DNA of 64,000 bases from assembly GCF_009914755.1 (NCBI RefSeq), contig NC_060938.1. One strand, written 5' to 3'. The notes below the pieces were generated by a model. The model was given only the letters and a program-made list of their open reading frames with translations, made no database searches and was not told the DNA's origin. Below, piece after piece: positions 25,978 to 36,638 of the stretch (positions within the stretch are counted from its first letter, which is position 1; each line of letters starts with the position of its first letter). A program made the position numbers and the translations under genes. Origin of the DNA: the human T2T-CHM13v2.0 reference genome, Homo sapiens.

Positions 25978-27315
25978 ATGGCTGGTCTCCAGCGGTTGGC
26001 GTCACATCTGCCTGTGGGCGTTATGCTCCCACATAATACAACGGAAGCTCCAGGGCCCCACTCAGCCAAGCAAGACTCTTATGAACAAGGTGACTCTTCC
26101 CAGCAGTCCTTGAAGGGGCACCTGAGGAACAATTTCCAGAAGCAGCTTTTGAGCAACAAAGAGTTGATTCTGGATAAAGTCTATACTCACCCCAAATGGA
26201 ACACCCAAACAAAAGCCCGGAGCTACTCCTATCCCCACTGTACTGGAATCAGCCAGCAAGATCCAGAAAGTGATTCCCAGGGCCAAGGAAATGGTTTGTT
26301 TTACTCGTCAGGCCCTCAATCCTGGTATCCCAAAGCCAATAACCAGGACTTTATCCCCTTTACAAAGAAACGAGTTGGAGTGGACCGGGCGTTCCCATTG
26401 AAACCCATGGTCCACAGGAAGTCGTGCAGTACAGGTGAGGCTGGCACTGATGGGGACCATAATGTCTACCCAAGGCCCCCTGAGCCGAGAGAGTTTTCAT
26501 CTAGGAACTTTGGTGTGAGGAACCAGGGCAACTTTTCTGTGGTTGGTACTGTTCTTGCTGCCACGCAGGCGGAGAAGGCCGTGGCAAACTTTGACAGGAC
26601 GGAGTGGGTGCAGATCCGAAGACTAGAAGCTGCAGGGGAGAGCTTAGAGGAGGAAATCCGAAGAAAGCAGATTCTCCTGAGGGGAAAGCTGAAGAAGACA
26701 GAGGAGGAACTCAGAAGGATCCAGACGCAAAAGGAACAGGCCAAGGAAAATGAAAACGGAGAGCTACAGAAAATTATACTCCCCAGGAGCAGAGTTAAAG
26801 GTAATAAAAGCAACACCATGTACAAACCTATCTTCTCCCCAGAATTTGAGTTTGAGGAAGAATTTAGTAGAGACAGGAGAGAGGATGAAACTTGGGGACG
26901 GTCTCAACAAAATTCAGTTCCATTCCAGTTCTCTGATTATAGAATCCAGAGGCTCAAAAGGGAAAGGCTGGTAGCAAGCAATAATAAAATTCGAGACCCA
27001 GTCTCAGAGCCATCGGTGGAGAAATTCTCCCCGCCTTCAGAAACACCAGTCGGTGCTTTGCAGGGATCCGCCAGAAATTCCAGCCTGTCCATGGCACCAG
27101 ACTCCTCAGGTTCCAGCGGCTCCATTGAAGAGCCACAGCTGGGTGAGTGCAGCCACTGTGGGCGCAAATTCCTCTCGTTCAGGCTGGAGAGACACTCCAA
27201 CATCTGCAGCAGGATGCGGGGTTCCAAGAGGAAAGTGTTTGACTCCTCCAGGGCCCGGGCTAAGGGCACAGAACTAGAGCAGTACTTGAACTGGAAGGGG
27301 CCAGCTTCAGCCAAG
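25978..27315 (+). CDS. ZC2HC1C: ZC2HC1C (FAM164C/C14orf140) exon 2 coding part, aa 1-446: coiled coil and C2HC zinc finger
   Basis: Long ORF MAGLQRLASHLP...; charged coiled-coil segment; CSHCGRKFLSFRLERHSNIC (CX2CX11HX3C); phase-0 donor AAG|GTAACA at 27315/27316. Confidence 0.95.
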
Positions 27316-29306
27316 GTAACAAGAGCCTTATGGATGTGACTTGGTGTGGTGATCATTGTAGGGGTCTGTTTTGTCATCATCAGTTTTCTTTAGGGAAAAT
27401 TCATGTGTCATGTAGGAAGAATTGACGTCTAGAATTAACATTTCTTGATTACTACTGTATGCCAGCATTGTGACGGGAGCTTTTCATGTGATCTCCACAT
27501 TATCTCTCATTGTATCAGTTCAAAAATCAAGACTTGGACAGGCTAAGTAACTTGCTTGAGGTCACAAACAGCTTTAAGTGGCAGAGTCGGCATATAAATC
27601 TTGGTTGGAATGACTAAAAAATCTAGACATAGAATTTGTGTCCTTTGGATTATAAAAGTAATAAAAGTTTACTGTAGAAAATTTAAAAGACACAAAAAAT
27701 CTAAAGAAAAAAATGCAGCCTTTTGTCACCTGGAGAGAACTCCTCACTCTTTGCAATGTATTCTGCCACTTCCCAAGACTAGGATCTGTGACCATTCCTT
27801 TAACTATTCACTCTTTTAAGGTTAGCTCAGTGTTAACATAGCTTCTTAGTAAATAGATGAAACACAATTAAGTTTGGAATTCTTTTTCTGCCCATTTAGA
27901 ATGTAAACACCTTGAAGGTAAAAAGGACTTTCTTTCTGGTTATCTTACAAACCATGCCCTTGCCAATTATTTCTCACTTTAGAAAAACCAGGTTGGAAAA
28001 AGTAAGGGTTTCGTGACACTTACATGATAAATTTAGGTGAACTTCATAGGCACATTTGGACATATCTGGAGAAGATTGTCTCATAAATGAATGACATGTC
28101 AAGGTTGTGCCACTTGGTTTATAAAATGGTTATTTCTCAAGGTGTGGCATGCTGACAAACTTTATTTTAGTAGTTTTAGTGTTTAGTGTTGTATTAGAAA
28201 AATTGATTCGTCGTTTAGTGTTATATTAGGAAAATATAACAATATATTAAGCCCCTGATTTCCAGGGATCATGAATTTACAGAAAAATATTAATTAGTTG
28301 TAAGGATGAAGTGAAAGTGCAGATGATTGAAGTTTGGGAAAGCGTAGATCATATGATCTCAGAGGCCCCATCTAGTTCTAATATTCCAGAAGAATAAGAG
28401 AGTGTCATTCTGTTTTCATTTCTTCCCAACCCTCCCTCCGCTGTGCTGGCACCTCTTGTCCATTGGCACTTTACAGTTTCTGTGTATTTGCTGGAGCCTT
28501 TAAAAACTCACATTTATATGATGGTTGTTAGAAGAAATTGTTTACAATTAGAGTTCTTTCTTTTAGTAGTTTGGAGAAATCACAAGGAAGTCCCATCCAT
28601 GTTCAGAGATCATCTCCCTGAAATCTAGTTTCCAAAGAAGAAATCAGCATTTTGCTCTTGCAGATAATAATATGATCACCACTTACTGTTTTTTCCTGTT
28701 TTCTTTCAGTTCAACCCAGTAATCCACTGGGAATTCACTCTATGTCCCACTGTAGCGATTTATTTTTGGCCAGAGCCTAAAAGAATCTTGTGTTTCTTAA
28801 ATTCGTAAATACAGTTACGGTGAAGCAAAATAATTAGGTTCCTGAGATCAGATGCTCCAGCTTTATGGCAACTAGTTTGTGGGAATGTGTGACATTGAGG
28901 ACACCAAGACAGAAGGGACCTAGACTAAGATGCACCTGCACCACCCTGGTAATGTCTCAAATCTTATTCCACAGTGCTGTGCCTTTGGAAGCTGAGTGGT
29001 TGTACCTTCCTGTCATTCCTCTAGAGTACTCAAGAACAGGTGATTTTCCTGGTATCCTTTAATCTTCACGTAACTCCCAGCAGACGTACACCCTGTCTCT
29101 CTCCTGGACTGTAAGCATTTTTGAGGACAGGGAACATATTTTGTGCTTTGTGCTTAATAAGTGTTAACTGAATAGAATTTCAGTACAATGAGGAATAAAA
29201 TTATAGGAATTAGAGTATAAGAAGTAAATTACTAAAGGATCTCATATACTTGAGGAACTTTCCCCTGATCAAATTCTTTGAGAGGAACTTTCCCCTGATC
29301 AAATTC

Positions 29307-31971
<2,665 letters not shown>

Positions 31972-32931
31972 TCTATTTAAATAATTTTTATTTTTAGCTA
32001 TCAAAGTTTTAATTTACAATAGTTCTTTCTGGTTCTCTGGTTGTCTTTTTTTCACAGTATACTCTTCTTGTTTTATGGACACAATCTCTTCTAATACTCA
32101 TTTTGTTGATATGGTCTCATGTTAAAAAAAAGTTTTCTTCTGCCACCTGCCTTGTTGCTGCCTCCTTTTTGTTTGTGGACTTTTTGGCTCTTTTTCTTGT
32201 TAGAGCTTTTAGCAAATATCTGATGATTCCTGGCTGTCCTTTCATATTTAAGCTTAAGTGGGGCTCATTGACTAAGGATCTTCATATTAAGGTTCCCAGA
32301 TAGTGAGTCTTTTAATTAGCGTTTCCCAAGGTCAGTATCTGAAGGCTTTTCTCTGGACTGTTCTGTGTATCCAGAGTACCCCTCTTTTTCCTATGAGGAT
32401 GCCAATATGCTTGGTACTCTGGGGGCTGAGTGGGGGAAGGAGGCTGACAGTTCGATAATTTGGTATGTACACTTGTACTTAATCCCCATTTTCAGCCCCA
32501 AGATTAACCCAGTTCCACGTGTCTAGATTTCCTGAGTCAGAAATCTGTGTGGTTCAATTTCTCCAGAGAATAAATCCTTGCTCTTCTGTGAGTGTGCTTG
32601 GGTGTTGAACACTTGGATGCATAAGGTGGGAGGAGCCGTGGGGTCCTACTTGTTTTCAGTCCTGTACCTCCTTACCTTCCACTATCGGGTACTTCCAAGC
32701 ACTGAACCTCTCAGGTTCTGTTGGGAAAGTGGCTTGCCTCTCAGCAGTACCTCCTTTGCAGGCCCTTGGTTTGCCTCAACGCTGGCAAGTCAGTTACTGC
32801 TGTTGCTCCTTTCCTGTTCTCTTTGACCTTGCAGATTAGTACCCTTTTCATTTTCTTACTGTTATTCTACAAGAGACTCAGGAAGAAGATAGGTGCCAAC
32901 TTGAATGATCAGTCTCCCTTTTACATTACAG

Positions 32932-32964
32932 GCTGAACCTCCTCAGAAGAGCAACTGGAGATAG
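32932..32964 (+). CDS. ZC2HC1C: ZC2HC1C last exon coding part AEPPQKSNWR* (protein 456 aa)
   Basis: Acceptor cttttacattacag|GCT at 32931/32932; TAG at 32962-32964; 446+10 = 456 aa. Confidence 0.92.
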   Translation, partial: AEPPQKSNWR

Positions 32965-33195
32965 AAGCATGAATCTTTTATCCATACGTTCCGCCAGGCT
33001 CGAGAGGTCCAGCAGGTAACTGCCAAAGGTGGAAACTGTTCACACTTGCCTCCCATCCTGCCTGCAGAAAACCCAGACTGCATTCAGTGTCCTCAGTGTA
33101 GCCACCACTTTGCTCCCAAGGTGGCTGAGCAACACATTCCCAAGTGTAAGACCATCAAGAACTGTCATCCACCTCTAAGGAAGCATTATAGTTGA
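32965..33195 (+). pseudogene. ZC2HC1C: Fossil C-terminal coding sequence of ZC2HC1C (second C2HC zinc finger) now in the 3'UTR
   Basis: 76 uninterrupted in-frame codons after the TAG, containing CPQCSHHFAPKVAEQHIPKC; ends at TGA 33193-33195. Confidence 0.9.
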
Positions 33196-33800
33196 GCAGA
33201 CAACAATGGAAACTTTTGGATAGTTCAGAAAGCTCTGCTTCTCTTCAGCAGTAAATGGGAGTAGAATTTGATGCAAAGCAGAAAGAAATCAAACAGCTCC
33301 CAGATCTGCCTGCAGAGCTAAAATCTGTGAGGAGAGAGCCACTGCTAAGCAGCAGGAGGCAGAAGGAAGCCCCAGCTTCCCACTAAATTACAACCTTGGG
33401 CTGGTATGCTTTATGTTATTGCCCTCAGAATTGATGGGTGAAGACACTGAAGAGTCATGAGCAGGCTCCATTAAAGCTCTTTTCTTGCATGCCTGACTTG
33501 TGGTTTGTGCTAGTTAAGTGCCTGCATCTGGTTCTGCCTTCTTGTCACTGCATGTATGTTCAGAGTTCCTGTTAACTCTTGCTTTTGTAGAAGCTGGAGT
33601 TATTAGGATGTGTTGGTGTCAGAGGGGCATGATCACCCAGATAGTAACTCTTATAAAAGATAATACAATTTTGCTATAAGGCATTATTAATGGAAATCTA
33701 TCCTTGGTCTCCCTGGTGCATGAGCCTGGCCAAAACCCAATACAAGTATGTAAGGTTAAGGCACCAATGTCTCCTAAACCTTCCCTATGGTGTACTGTGT

Positions 33801-33806
33801 AATAAA
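33801..33806 (+). terminator. ZC2HC1C: ZC2HC1C polyadenylation signal AATAAA
   Basis: Canonical hexamer about 840 nt after the stop, preceded by TGTA motifs. Confidence 0.65.
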
Positions 33807-35448
33807 GGAAAGATCTTTATGTACTTTACAGGGTAGGGATGGGTGTTGGGGGGGAAACACATTATACTTCTCTCTACTTGTTCTTTTCTAATGGGTTTCA
33901 TATGTTAAGAAAGAAACCTCCATTTTAGCTGTTAGTAGCACTCTACTTTCAAATCGGTTTGGCTAAATGACTGTTTAGAGGCAGCAAAATCTACCATCAA
34001 AGCAAGCTGAGACAGGCTGGTCATGGTGGCTCATTCCTATAATCCCAGCACTTTGGGAGGCTGAAGTGGGAGGATTGCTTGAGGCCAGGAGTTCAAGAGC
34101 GGCCTCGACAACAAAGCAAGACCCCATCTCAAAACAAAACAAAGCTGGGACACTGCACAGTGTCACATGCCCTTGGCAATTATAGCATAGTCAACTTCTA
34201 TTTCAGAGAGTAAACTTTGAAGGGAAAGGGATCAAATCTTTTTAATTTTCTCTGTGTAGAATATTGCCTAGCACAAGTTAGACCTTCAATTAGTGAGGTC
34301 TGGAGATTTAAAATTAAACAAGAAGATGAGTGAGTCCTACACTAGTGAAATCAGAGAACTGATAAGTTAATGTCTGCGAGAGTATTATCAGTTCAGATAG
34401 GAGTGAAGTTAGCACAACAGATAGAAATCTTAGGATTACTGTTCTGTATTACTCAAATTGTTAGTTTAAAATACTGGAGAAAAACTGCTCAATTTGAGCT
34501 AGTCAACAGGGCTAGACAGACAACAAAATCCTATTTTACTAAGTAACAAATGGCCACTCACTCTTGCTCCATTTCCACTGCACTCCAGCCTGGTGACCTA
34601 GTGAGACTCCATCTCAAAAAAAAAAAAAAAAAAAGAAAAAAAAATTGGGCTAACAGATCAGACCAATTTGAAATGTGAGTTAAGGCTTTAGCGGTGAAGC
34701 TGCAGGACACAGGCTGGGAAAAAATCCTATATATTTAAATAGGAGCACACATTTCTTTGCACTCTTTTTAATTGTTCCAAAGGAAAGGAGGTATCACATA
34801 ATAAAGCTTTATGGTTAGCCCCTTAAGGAAACCTCACACAGAGATAATGGATATTTAACCTAATAGGTACATTCCCTAGGCAAGTTCAATGAAATGTACA
34901 CTTTAAGTGGGAATGTAAACCAGTACATTGCAATAGATGGCAAGAATAAGCTGTGGCCAAGGTCACAAAATGGCAACATGTGGATTGCTTTGCTCCACAG
35001 ATGTTTTATTTCGCTGGCCTAGCATTCATAATATGATCTGACATTTAAAAACTGGGATATGGAACATCTCTTGAAAAACTGGAAGTTCTGGAAACACTGG
35101 GCCAGCAACCCGCATGGCACAAATTGGGTGGGGTTTAGAATCAGATGCTCCTCCAGATGGGAATGGTAGCACCAGACCACTGCAGTCTCACTTGGCCTGC
35201 TTCACTTCTTTACCTTATCTGCCTGGTACCACAGGCACTTGGATTTGGGATTGCTGGATGTTAGTAAGGTCATAGATCTGGGCCCTCCAGAGAGAACAAA
35301 TTGTTGTTATATGTGGGGAGTGCTTTCTAAAAAGGAAGCAGTTGTTTGCTCTCATTTTGCTAAAGAAATAAAACAATAGTCAATGCCTTAAGTGTTCCCT
35401 TTAATCTCTACATGTTTAGGCCTTGGTTATATTAGAAATATCTTTCAA

Positions 35449-36638
<1,190 letters not shown>

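What the first reader, a model, noticed from the sequence alone, without database searches (positions are those of the whole stretch)
32932..33195. ZC2HC1C is cut by a single TAG; a complete second C2HC zinc finger lies in frame in the 3'UTR
Seen: after AEPPQKSNWR the TAG (32962-32964) is followed by 76 open codons, KHESFIHTFRQAREVQQVTAKGGNCSHLPPILPAENPDCIQCPQCSHHFAPKVAEQHIPKCKTIKNCHPPLRKHYS*. These carry the same CX2CX11HX3C spacing as the expressed finger in exon 2. Established, from memory: the paralog ZC2HC1A continues SNWRRKHEEFI...DPDYIQCPYC..RF...RHI.FC, the same module. Inference: a lineage-specific nonsense change (probably CAG>TAG) shortened a 533-aa ancestral protein to 456 aa. The stop is in the last exon, so the mRNA should escape NMD. 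Several codons look like CpG-decayed Arg (CAC CAC, CAA CAC versus ERH in finger 1), which suggests relaxed selection since the truncation. Stop readthrough, editing or a segregating reversion allele would restore the finger.
Basis: partly seen in the sequence, partly recalled or inferred. Interest (0 to 1): 0.8.

Follow-up and report, generated by a model that had tools for sequence, protein, structure and literature searches.

The report
Human ZC2HC1C lost its second finger
In the human ZC2HC1C gene a single stop codon has replaced a glutamine that other land vertebrates keep, so the human protein lacks the second zinc finger of its relatives, whose decaying remains still lie in frame in the 3'UTR.

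Summary
TAG at 32962-32964 ends the 456-codon reading frame. Behind it lie 76 open codons and a TGA at 33193-33195.

The 76 codons align without gaps with the C-termini of 10 orthologues, from macaque to opossum, and end at the same stop. The TAG falls on a glutamine. That glutamine is present in 121 of 122 orthologues that carry the motif, and 0 of 150 fetched proteins ends there. The paralogues ZC2HC1A and ZC2HC1B carry the same linker and finger module.

The relic keeps all four zinc ligands but is eroding:
- Pfam zf-C2HC_2 scores 10.9 bits for the relic, against 21.8 in macaque and 30.8-36.7 in four other mammals.
- At 43 highly conserved sites the relic departs 6 times, more than any of 115 orthologues.

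Readthrough has no support: the context is UAG-A and no structure follows.

Seven changes on the human lineage argue that the loss of constraint is old, probably shared with other apes. I could see no ape sequence, so this is untested. No paper found describes the truncation. It is a clean but ordinary domain loss.

The parts
25978..27315 (+). Coding part of ZC2HC1C exon 2, 446 codons. It contains the expressed first C2HC finger at residues 387-410 (about 27136-27207).
   Evidence: One search gives the translation (P0001). PF13913 scores 26.4 bits at residues 387-410; the genome-wide PF13913 scan finds this finger at 31.7 bits.
32932..32961 (+). The last ten sense codons of the human protein (AEPPQKSNWR), at the start of the terminal exon.
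   Evidence: They align with AEPP(R/Q)KSNWR of the orthologues.
32962..32964 (+). Derived TAG stop codon, in place of a Gln codon that is nearly invariant elsewhere.
   Evidence: Q in 10 of 10 aligned orthologues. Q in 121 of 122 orthologues with the motif, L in 1, and 0 of 150 fetched proteins ends at WR.
32965..33192 (+). Relic of the ancestral C-terminus, 76 in-frame codons now in the 3'UTR. It comprises the linker (KHESFI..AKGG), the second C2HC finger and the basic, proline-rich tail.
   Evidence: 89% identity to macaque, E = 2.1e-35; a sifaka query finds it at 85% identity with one TAG inside.
33088..33147 (+). Core of the relic finger, CPQCSHHFAPKVAEQHIPKC. All four zinc ligands are kept, but the neighbouring residues have changed (Y>C three residues before the first Cys, and H>Q inside CPHC).
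   Evidence: PF13913 scores only 10.9 bits (E = 0.38), against 21.8-36.7 bits for the same stretch of five orthologues.
33193..33195 (+). The ancestral stop codon (TGA), at the position where the full-length orthologues end.
   Evidence: The alignment ends flush with the C-termini of the orthologues (..RKHYS).

Best explanation
A single nonsense substitution, most simply CAG to TAG, turned a Gln codon in the last exon of ZC2HC1C into a stop on the lineage leading to humans. The ancestral protein had about 531-533 residues and two fingers. The human protein has 456 residues and keeps only finger 1. It has lost the conserved linker, the second C2HC finger and the KTIKNRPPPPRK tail.

The stop lies in the terminal exon, so the mRNA should not be an NMD target, and the short protein is the normal human product. 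The 76 codons behind the stop are no longer translated and are drifting.

Shown here: the position of the stop, the homology and collinearity of the relic, the two-finger state of the orthologues and paralogues, and the excess of changes at conserved sites.

Inferred: the exact base change, that the relic is untranslated, and the age. From the number of private changes, constraint was probably lost well before the human-chimpanzee split, and erosion of finger 2 had already begun in the catarrhine stem.
For: 1; the TAG, the 76 open codons, the TGA, and phase 0.

2; 286 homologues at E <= 0.001. Among the 120 listed, most orthologues are 520-537 aa, including macaque (531 aa, 91% identical), mouse (527 aa) and opossum (534 aa).

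3; gapless alignment of the read-through exon with 10 orthologues, with the TAG on Q and a shared end.

4. Q in 121 of 122 orthologues, and none of 150 proteins ends at WR.

5; the relic finds 110 ZC2HC1C proteins, from mammals to birds, turtles, tuatara and axolotl.

6; the same module is present in human ZC2HC1A and ZC2HC1B.

7. Decay of the relic:
- PF13913 bits for the last 76 residues are mouse 36.7, sifaka 34.6, opossum 33.5, tamarin 30.8 and macaque 21.8, against 10.9 for the human relic.
- At 43 sites that are at least 95% conserved in 115 orthologue C-termini, the relic departs at 6. That is more than any of the 115 (maximum 5; 105 of them have 0 or 1).
- The relic alone no longer finds the paralogues in the genome, whereas the sifaka module does.

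8; downstream of the stop there are 6 human-only changes against 1 macaque-only change, plus one site where both differ. Upstream the counts are balanced, 17 against 21, so the retained part has not sped up.

9; 7 private amino-acid changes over 180.7 nonsynonymous sites. If the region has been neutral only since the chimpanzee split, P(>=7) = 1.4e-4. Since the orangutan split it is 0.037, and since the macaque split 0.36. The divergence values used are recalled, not computed.

10. Passages of PMC12029121 treat 456 aa as the wild type. They cite work placing the human protein at the ciliary tip.
Against: - The lineage-by-region contrast is not significant: Fisher p = 0.08-0.17, and the binomial test on the downstream counts gives p = 0.125.
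- Two of the seven private changes (R>C, CGT>TGT) are CpG transitions, which inflates the count. With 5 changes the tail probabilities are 0.005 for the chimpanzee split and 0.2 for the orangutan split.
- No ape sequence, orthologue DNA, population data, Ribo-seq or proteomics could be examined. The age, fixation and non-translation are therefore inferred.
- All four zinc ligands and the whole 76-codon frame are still intact. Chance retention of an open frame of this length is not rare, but I did not test it.
Confidence: 0.9

Rival explanations
1. The TAG is leaky or recoded, by programmed readthrough or by A-to-I editing of UAG to UIG (read as Trp). A 533-aa two-finger isoform would then still be made at a useful level.
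For: The 76-codon frame is open to the ancestral stop and the four ligands are intact.
Against: - The stop is UAG followed by A. Passages of PMC11387191 rank readthrough as UGA>UAG>UAA for G418 and SRI, with C the most permissive next base. Those are drug-induced data; that natural readthrough prefers UGA-CUAG is recalled.
- The 120 nt from the TAG fold no better than shuffles (z = 0.19; 104 of 200 shuffles fold at least as well). The only pairing at the TAG is a 6-bp hairpin, too short for an ADAR substrate (recalled).
- There is no Rfam match in 32000-35500.
- The relic has changed at sites invariant elsewhere, including Y>C and H>Q at the finger, and it falls to 10.9 bits.
Confidence: 0.03
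2. The TAG is a variant still segregating in humans. An ancestral CAG allele encoding the long protein would then be common.
For: Nothing from my calls. Only one haplotype, this window, was read.
Against: - RefSeq NM_024643.4 as placed on this assembly ends its coding part at 32964 (hub annotation).
- PMC12029121 gives 456 aa as the wild type (passages).
- Seven further private changes at conserved sites imply a long time without constraint.
Confidence: 0.03
3. The AG of the TAG is used as an alternative 3' splice site. Exon 2 ends in phase 0, so joining it to 32965 would give an in-frame 522-aa protein with the second finger.
For: The frame arithmetic only. An in-frame acceptor 15 nt inside the exon (cctcctcag|AAG) seems to be used in a mouse-lemur model, P0009, which reads ..SVKKSNWRQ...
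Against: - The 20 nt before this AG are purine-rich (..agaagagcaactggagatag), and two good AGs lie upstream of it.
- None of the alternative exons listed by the hub for the 7 transcripts starts at 32965.
- The decay of the relic argues against any use of it.
Confidence: 0.02
4. Loss of constraint on finger 2 came first, in catarrhines, and the TAG is a late, possibly human-specific consequence rather than the cause of the decay.
For: -: four to five changes are shared by human and macaque (R>H, I>T, D>H, R>H, probably P>R) and one by all anthropoids (R>Q), in a module nearly frozen from opossum to sifaka.
- Pfam bits fall stepwise: 34.6 in sifaka, 30.8 in tamarin, 21.8 in macaque.
Against: - Macaque keeps the frame, all ligands and the whole tail. 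It has only 1 private change against 6-7 in human, and 2 departures at conserved sites against 6. Constraint therefore persisted on the macaque lineage.
Confidence: 0.2

Closest known systems
ZC2HC1C orthologues of other mammals (for example macaque P0002, 531 aa; mouse P0078, 527 aa)
   Same: The gene and exon layout are the same. Macaque is 91% identical over the first 446 residues. The read-through exon is 87% identical to macaque and the 76-aa relic 89%. The ancestral stop is the same.
   Different: The orthologues read Gln where human has TAG, and they carry a second PF13913 finger (two matched stretches). Human ends 77 codons early.
Human paralogue ZC2HC1A (chr8)
   Same: It has the same module after finger 1..PSNWRRKHEEFIATIR.. 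as linker, a proline run, then DYIQCPYCQRRFNENAADRHINFC. It is 50% and 56% identical to the sifaka module.
   Different: In ZC2HC1A the module is intact and is split by an intron just before DYIQ. In ZC2HC1C it lies in one exon and is cut off by the stop.
Human paralogue ZC2HC1B (chr6)
   Same: It has the same linker and second-finger module.
   Different: Its second finger is lost in a different way. The first Cys ligand reads Arg (DYIQRPYC), while the frame stays open.
Lineage-specific truncation of human genes by a nonsense or frameshift change (class recalled from the literature, for example CASP12 and MYH16; no call)
   Same: A single disabling change leaves recognisable, decaying coding sequence downstream.
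   Different: Here only a C-terminal domain is removed. The retained 456 aa has evolved at the same pace as in macaque (17 against 21 private changes). It is reported as a ciliary-tip protein (PMC12029121, passages).

Membership tests
Pfam PF13913 zf-C2HC_2 (the relic finger) | Four zinc ligands with spacing C-x2-C-x11-H-x3-C | tested here: met
   reads CPQCSHHFAPKVAEQHIPKC, the same spacing as finger 1.
Pfam PF13913 zf-C2HC_2 (the relic finger) | Score at or above the curated gathering cut-off (27 bits) | tested here: not met
   10.9 bits, E = 0.38. For the same 76 residues, mouse scores 36.7, sifaka 34.6, opossum 33.5, tamarin 30.8 and macaque 21.8. The relic is not among the 65 matches at E <= 10 in the genome-wide scan, of which only 150 of 296 candidates were scored.
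ZC2HC1 family, two-finger architecture (finger 1, SNWR-x-KHE linker, finger 2) | Collinear homology of the stretch behind finger 1 with orthologues and paralogues | tested here: met
   One search gives a gapless alignment with 10 orthologues. One search gives 110 hits. Searches show the module in ZC2HC1A and ZC2HC1B.
ZC2HC1 family, two-finger architecture | The second finger is part of the translated protein | tested here: not met
   TAG at 32962-32964 lies 41 codons upstream of the first Cys of the finger. Translation past the stop cannot be tested with these tools.
Programmed stop-codon readthrough genes of mammals | Leaky stop context (UGA followed by CUAG, or C after the stop; recalled, and for drug-induced readthrough PMC11387191 passages) | tested here: not met
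   AGA UAG AAG CAU.
Programmed stop-codon readthrough genes of mammals | Stimulatory RNA structure downstream of the stop | tested here: not met
   z = 0.19 against 200 shuffles; no Rfam family.
Programmed stop-codon readthrough genes of mammals | Protein-like conservation of the extension in the species that carry the stop | not testable with these tools
   No ape DNA or protein could be seen. The protein database shows only one representative per 90% identity cluster, and none of the listed representatives reaching the last exon is a human or ape protein.

The most novel reading that the evidence does not exclude
A small fraction of human ZC2HC1C is still made with the second finger. This could happen by readthrough of the UAG, or by use of the AG of the TAG as an in-frame 3' splice site. 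The still-open 76-codon frame with all four ligands would then be a conditionally expressed C-terminal extension and not a dead relic.
Probability: 0.04. Interest if true: 0.6.

Novelty: new member of a known kind. Interest (0 to 1): 0.35.

Why it matters
ZC2HC1C is a poorly understood testis- and cilia-linked protein. Studies of human variants and of mouse models assume the two proteins are equivalent. They are not: the human protein lacks a linker, finger and tail module that is conserved across the mammals, birds, turtles, tuatara and axolotl sampled.

With ZC2HC1B's second finger also degenerate in human, only ZC2HC1A keeps an intact second finger. This matters for three things:
- interpreting variants near the 3' end of the gene;
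- choosing constructs (human 456 aa against mouse 527 aa);
- asking what finger 2 does.

As evolution it is a tidy example of domain loss by one nonsense change with a datable relic. The mechanism itself is well known.

Tried and rejected
- **Dating the TAG in apes failed.** The protein database shows only one representative per 90% cluster. The nearest visible proteins are macaque (P0002, 119 members) and a 290-aa chimpanzee isoform that ends before the last exon (P0062). The held genome has no relatives. I left the third homologue search unused, because clustering would hide apes again.
- **Literature searches found no account of the truncation.** The searches were ZC2HC1C (35 papers, 25 listed), FAM164C or C14orf140 (13 papers, 12 listed), and ZC2HC1C with readthrough, nonsense, human-specific, stop gain or hominoid (where none of the 20 listed contains ZC2HC1C). 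A search for ZC2HC1C with cilia, testis and knockout added nothing. Only main texts are searched, so supplementary tables of lineage-specific stop gains may list it.
- **The short orthologue forms are not stops at the human TAG.** Forms of about 439-458 aa looked at first like independent truncations. Most end in V(T/I)(R/K)A.., which is exon 2 read on into intron 2; human reads VTRALWM* there too. A few others are alternative last exons in predicted models.
- **The relic as a query for paralogues found only itself** plus four chance-level hits.
- **There is no competing feature on either strand.** No ORF stands out and no RNA family matches.

Full report
**What is there**

The terminal exon of ZC2HC1C starts at 32932 in phase 0, because the coding part of exon 2 (25978-27315) is exactly 446 codons. 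It reads AEPPQKSNWR and then TAG at 32962-32964. After the TAG come 76 sense codons (32965-33192) and TGA at 33193-33195.

Both fingers have the spacing C-x2-C-x11-H-x3-C. Finger 1 is CSHCGRKFLSFRLERHSNIC and the downstream one is CPQCSHHFAPKVAEQHIPKC.

**What it is**

A search with the 446-residue exon-2 protein gave 286 homologues at E <= 0.001. The 120 listed are ZC2HC1C proteins of mammals. Most are 520-537 aa, for example macaque 531 aa (91% identical), tamarin 531, sifaka 532, mouse 527, elephant 532 and opossum 534.

I read the human exon through with X at the stop and aligned it with ten of these. It is collinear without a gap, the X falls on Gln in all ten, and the human frame ends exactly where their proteins end. 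I then examined all 150 fetched proteins:
- 122 carry the WR-x-xHE/D motif.
- The residue after WR is Q in 121 of them and L in 1.
- None of the 150 ends at WR.

The relic alone finds 110 proteins at E <= 0.001. All the named ones are ZC2HC1C, and they reach birds, turtles, tuatara and axolotl. The ancestral state is therefore a two-finger protein, and the human stop is derived. TAG is one transition from CAG. That this was the change is inference, because I saw no orthologue DNA.

**Paralogues**

I used the sifaka C-terminal module as a query against the held human genome. It finds:
- the relic, at 85% identity with one TAG inside;
- two exons of ZC2HC1A on chr8, at 50% and 56% identity;
- two exons of ZC2HC1B on chr6, at 49% and 44% identity.

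In the paralogues an intron splits the module just before DYIQ. In ZC2HC1C the module is in one exon.

**Is the relic decaying?**

Against the consensus of 115 orthologue C-termini the relic has 12 mismatches and macaque has 7. From the alignment they sort as follows, in relic numbering:
- Shared by human and macaque: R7H, I19T, D27H and R47H.
- Shared by all anthropoids: R56Q.
- Macaque only: G23E.
- Position 25 is P in most species, R in macaque and C in human.
- Human only: L9F, Y39C, H44Q, R67C, P68H and P71L.

Both predate the human-macaque split and occur in species with an open frame. That argument fails.

The private changes do point to relaxed constraint:
- At 43 sites conserved in at least 95% of the 115 orthologues, the relic departs at 6. 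That is more than any orthologue (maximum 5; 105 of 115 have 0 or 1).
- Pfam PF13913 scores for the last 76 residues are mouse 36.7, sifaka 34.6, opossum 33.5, tamarin 30.8 and macaque 21.8 bits. The human relic scores 10.9 bits.

A relative-rate count, with the two New World monkeys as outgroup, gives these figures:
- Downstream of the stop: 6 human-only changes against 1 macaque-only, plus one site where both differ (74 sites).
- Upstream of the stop: 17 against 21 (416 sites).

The direction is as expected, and the retained part of the protein has not accelerated. With counts this small the contrast is not significant (Fisher p = 0.08-0.17).

**Age**

The relic has 180.7 nonsynonymous sites. 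I used recalled per-lineage neutral divergences of about 0.6% to the chimpanzee split, 1.7% to orangutan and 3.2% to macaque. With these, seven private amino-acid changes have P(>=7) = 1.4e-4, 0.037 and 0.36 respectively.

Two of the seven changes are CpG transitions (CGT>TGT). With five changes the figures are 0.005, 0.2 and 0.68.

This favours an old loss of constraint, before the great apes diverged, over a human-specific event. It dates the loss of constraint, not the stop itself. The stepwise fall in Pfam score from sifaka to tamarin to macaque suggests some erosion of finger 2 before any stop.

No ape protein or DNA was visible to me, because 90% clustering hides them. This remains a prediction.

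**Readthrough, editing and splicing**

- The context is AGA UAG AAG. Passages of PMC11387191 rank UGA>UAG>UAA for G418 and SRI, and give C as the most permissive following base.
- The 120 nt from the TAG fold no better than shuffles (z = 0.19).
- No Rfam family matches 32000-35500.
- Use of the AG of the TAG as an in-frame acceptor is arithmetically possible. But the AG sits behind a purine-rich stretch, and it is not among the annotated exon variants.
- No other ORF of note lies on either strand.

**Function**

Passages of PMC12029121 take 456 aa with one finger as the wild type. They cite work placing the human protein at the ciliary tip, moving with IFT trains. They also report an exon-2 frameshift at 0.25% allele frequency with homozygotes in gnomAD.

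The short protein is thus the working human product. What finger 2 adds in other species is unknown.

**Short forms in other species**

About two dozen fetched proteins of 439-458 aa are not stops at the human position. Most are exon 2 read into intron 2, ending V(T/I)(R/K)A..; human would read VTRALWM* there. Others are predicted alternative last exons.

**Novelty**

None of my four literature searches found a description of the truncation (main texts only). The difference in length can be seen in public protein records. I rate it a new member of a known kind. It is a clean, well-supported domain loss, useful for anyone comparing human and mouse ZC2HC1C, and not mechanistically surprising.

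Noticed in passing
L030:1501-1602 (G000 chr6 145091219-145091320), human ZC2HC1B: The second finger of the paralogue ZC2HC1B reads DYIQRPYCMRRFNESAAERHTNFC, with Arg where the first Cys ligand should be. In human, two of the three ZC2HC1 paralogues therefore lack a working second finger, each in a different way. I did not check whether the Arg is lineage-specific.
   Followed up: partly
window 32965-33192 compared with P0002, P0003 and P0004: Finger 2 was already eroding in anthropoids while the frame was still open. R>Q before the His ligand is shared by New World monkeys and catarrhines. Four to five further changes are shared by human and macaque. Pfam bits fall from 34.6 (sifaka) to 30.8 (tamarin) to 21.8 (macaque).
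   Followed up: partly
window 27316-27339: If intron 2 is retained, the frame runs on for only 7 codons (VTRALWM) before a stop. Many database 'short forms' of the orthologues (439-448 aa) end in the equivalent intron read-in. They may be ORF calls on genomic or unspliced contigs rather than real isoforms.
   Followed up: partly
window 32938-32946: An in-frame second acceptor (cctcctcag|AAG) lies 15 nt inside the last exon. A mouse-lemur model (P0009, ..SVKKSNWRQ..) appears to use the equivalent site. In human it would remove AEPPQ but not the TAG.
   Followed up: no
G000 chr5 122669132-122699480 (L006-L011): The strongest PF13913 matches in the human genome are a cluster of six fingers on chr5 (34.1-48.7 bits). 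It is probably ZNF474 and a neighbouring gene, but that name is recalled and not checked.
   Followed up: no
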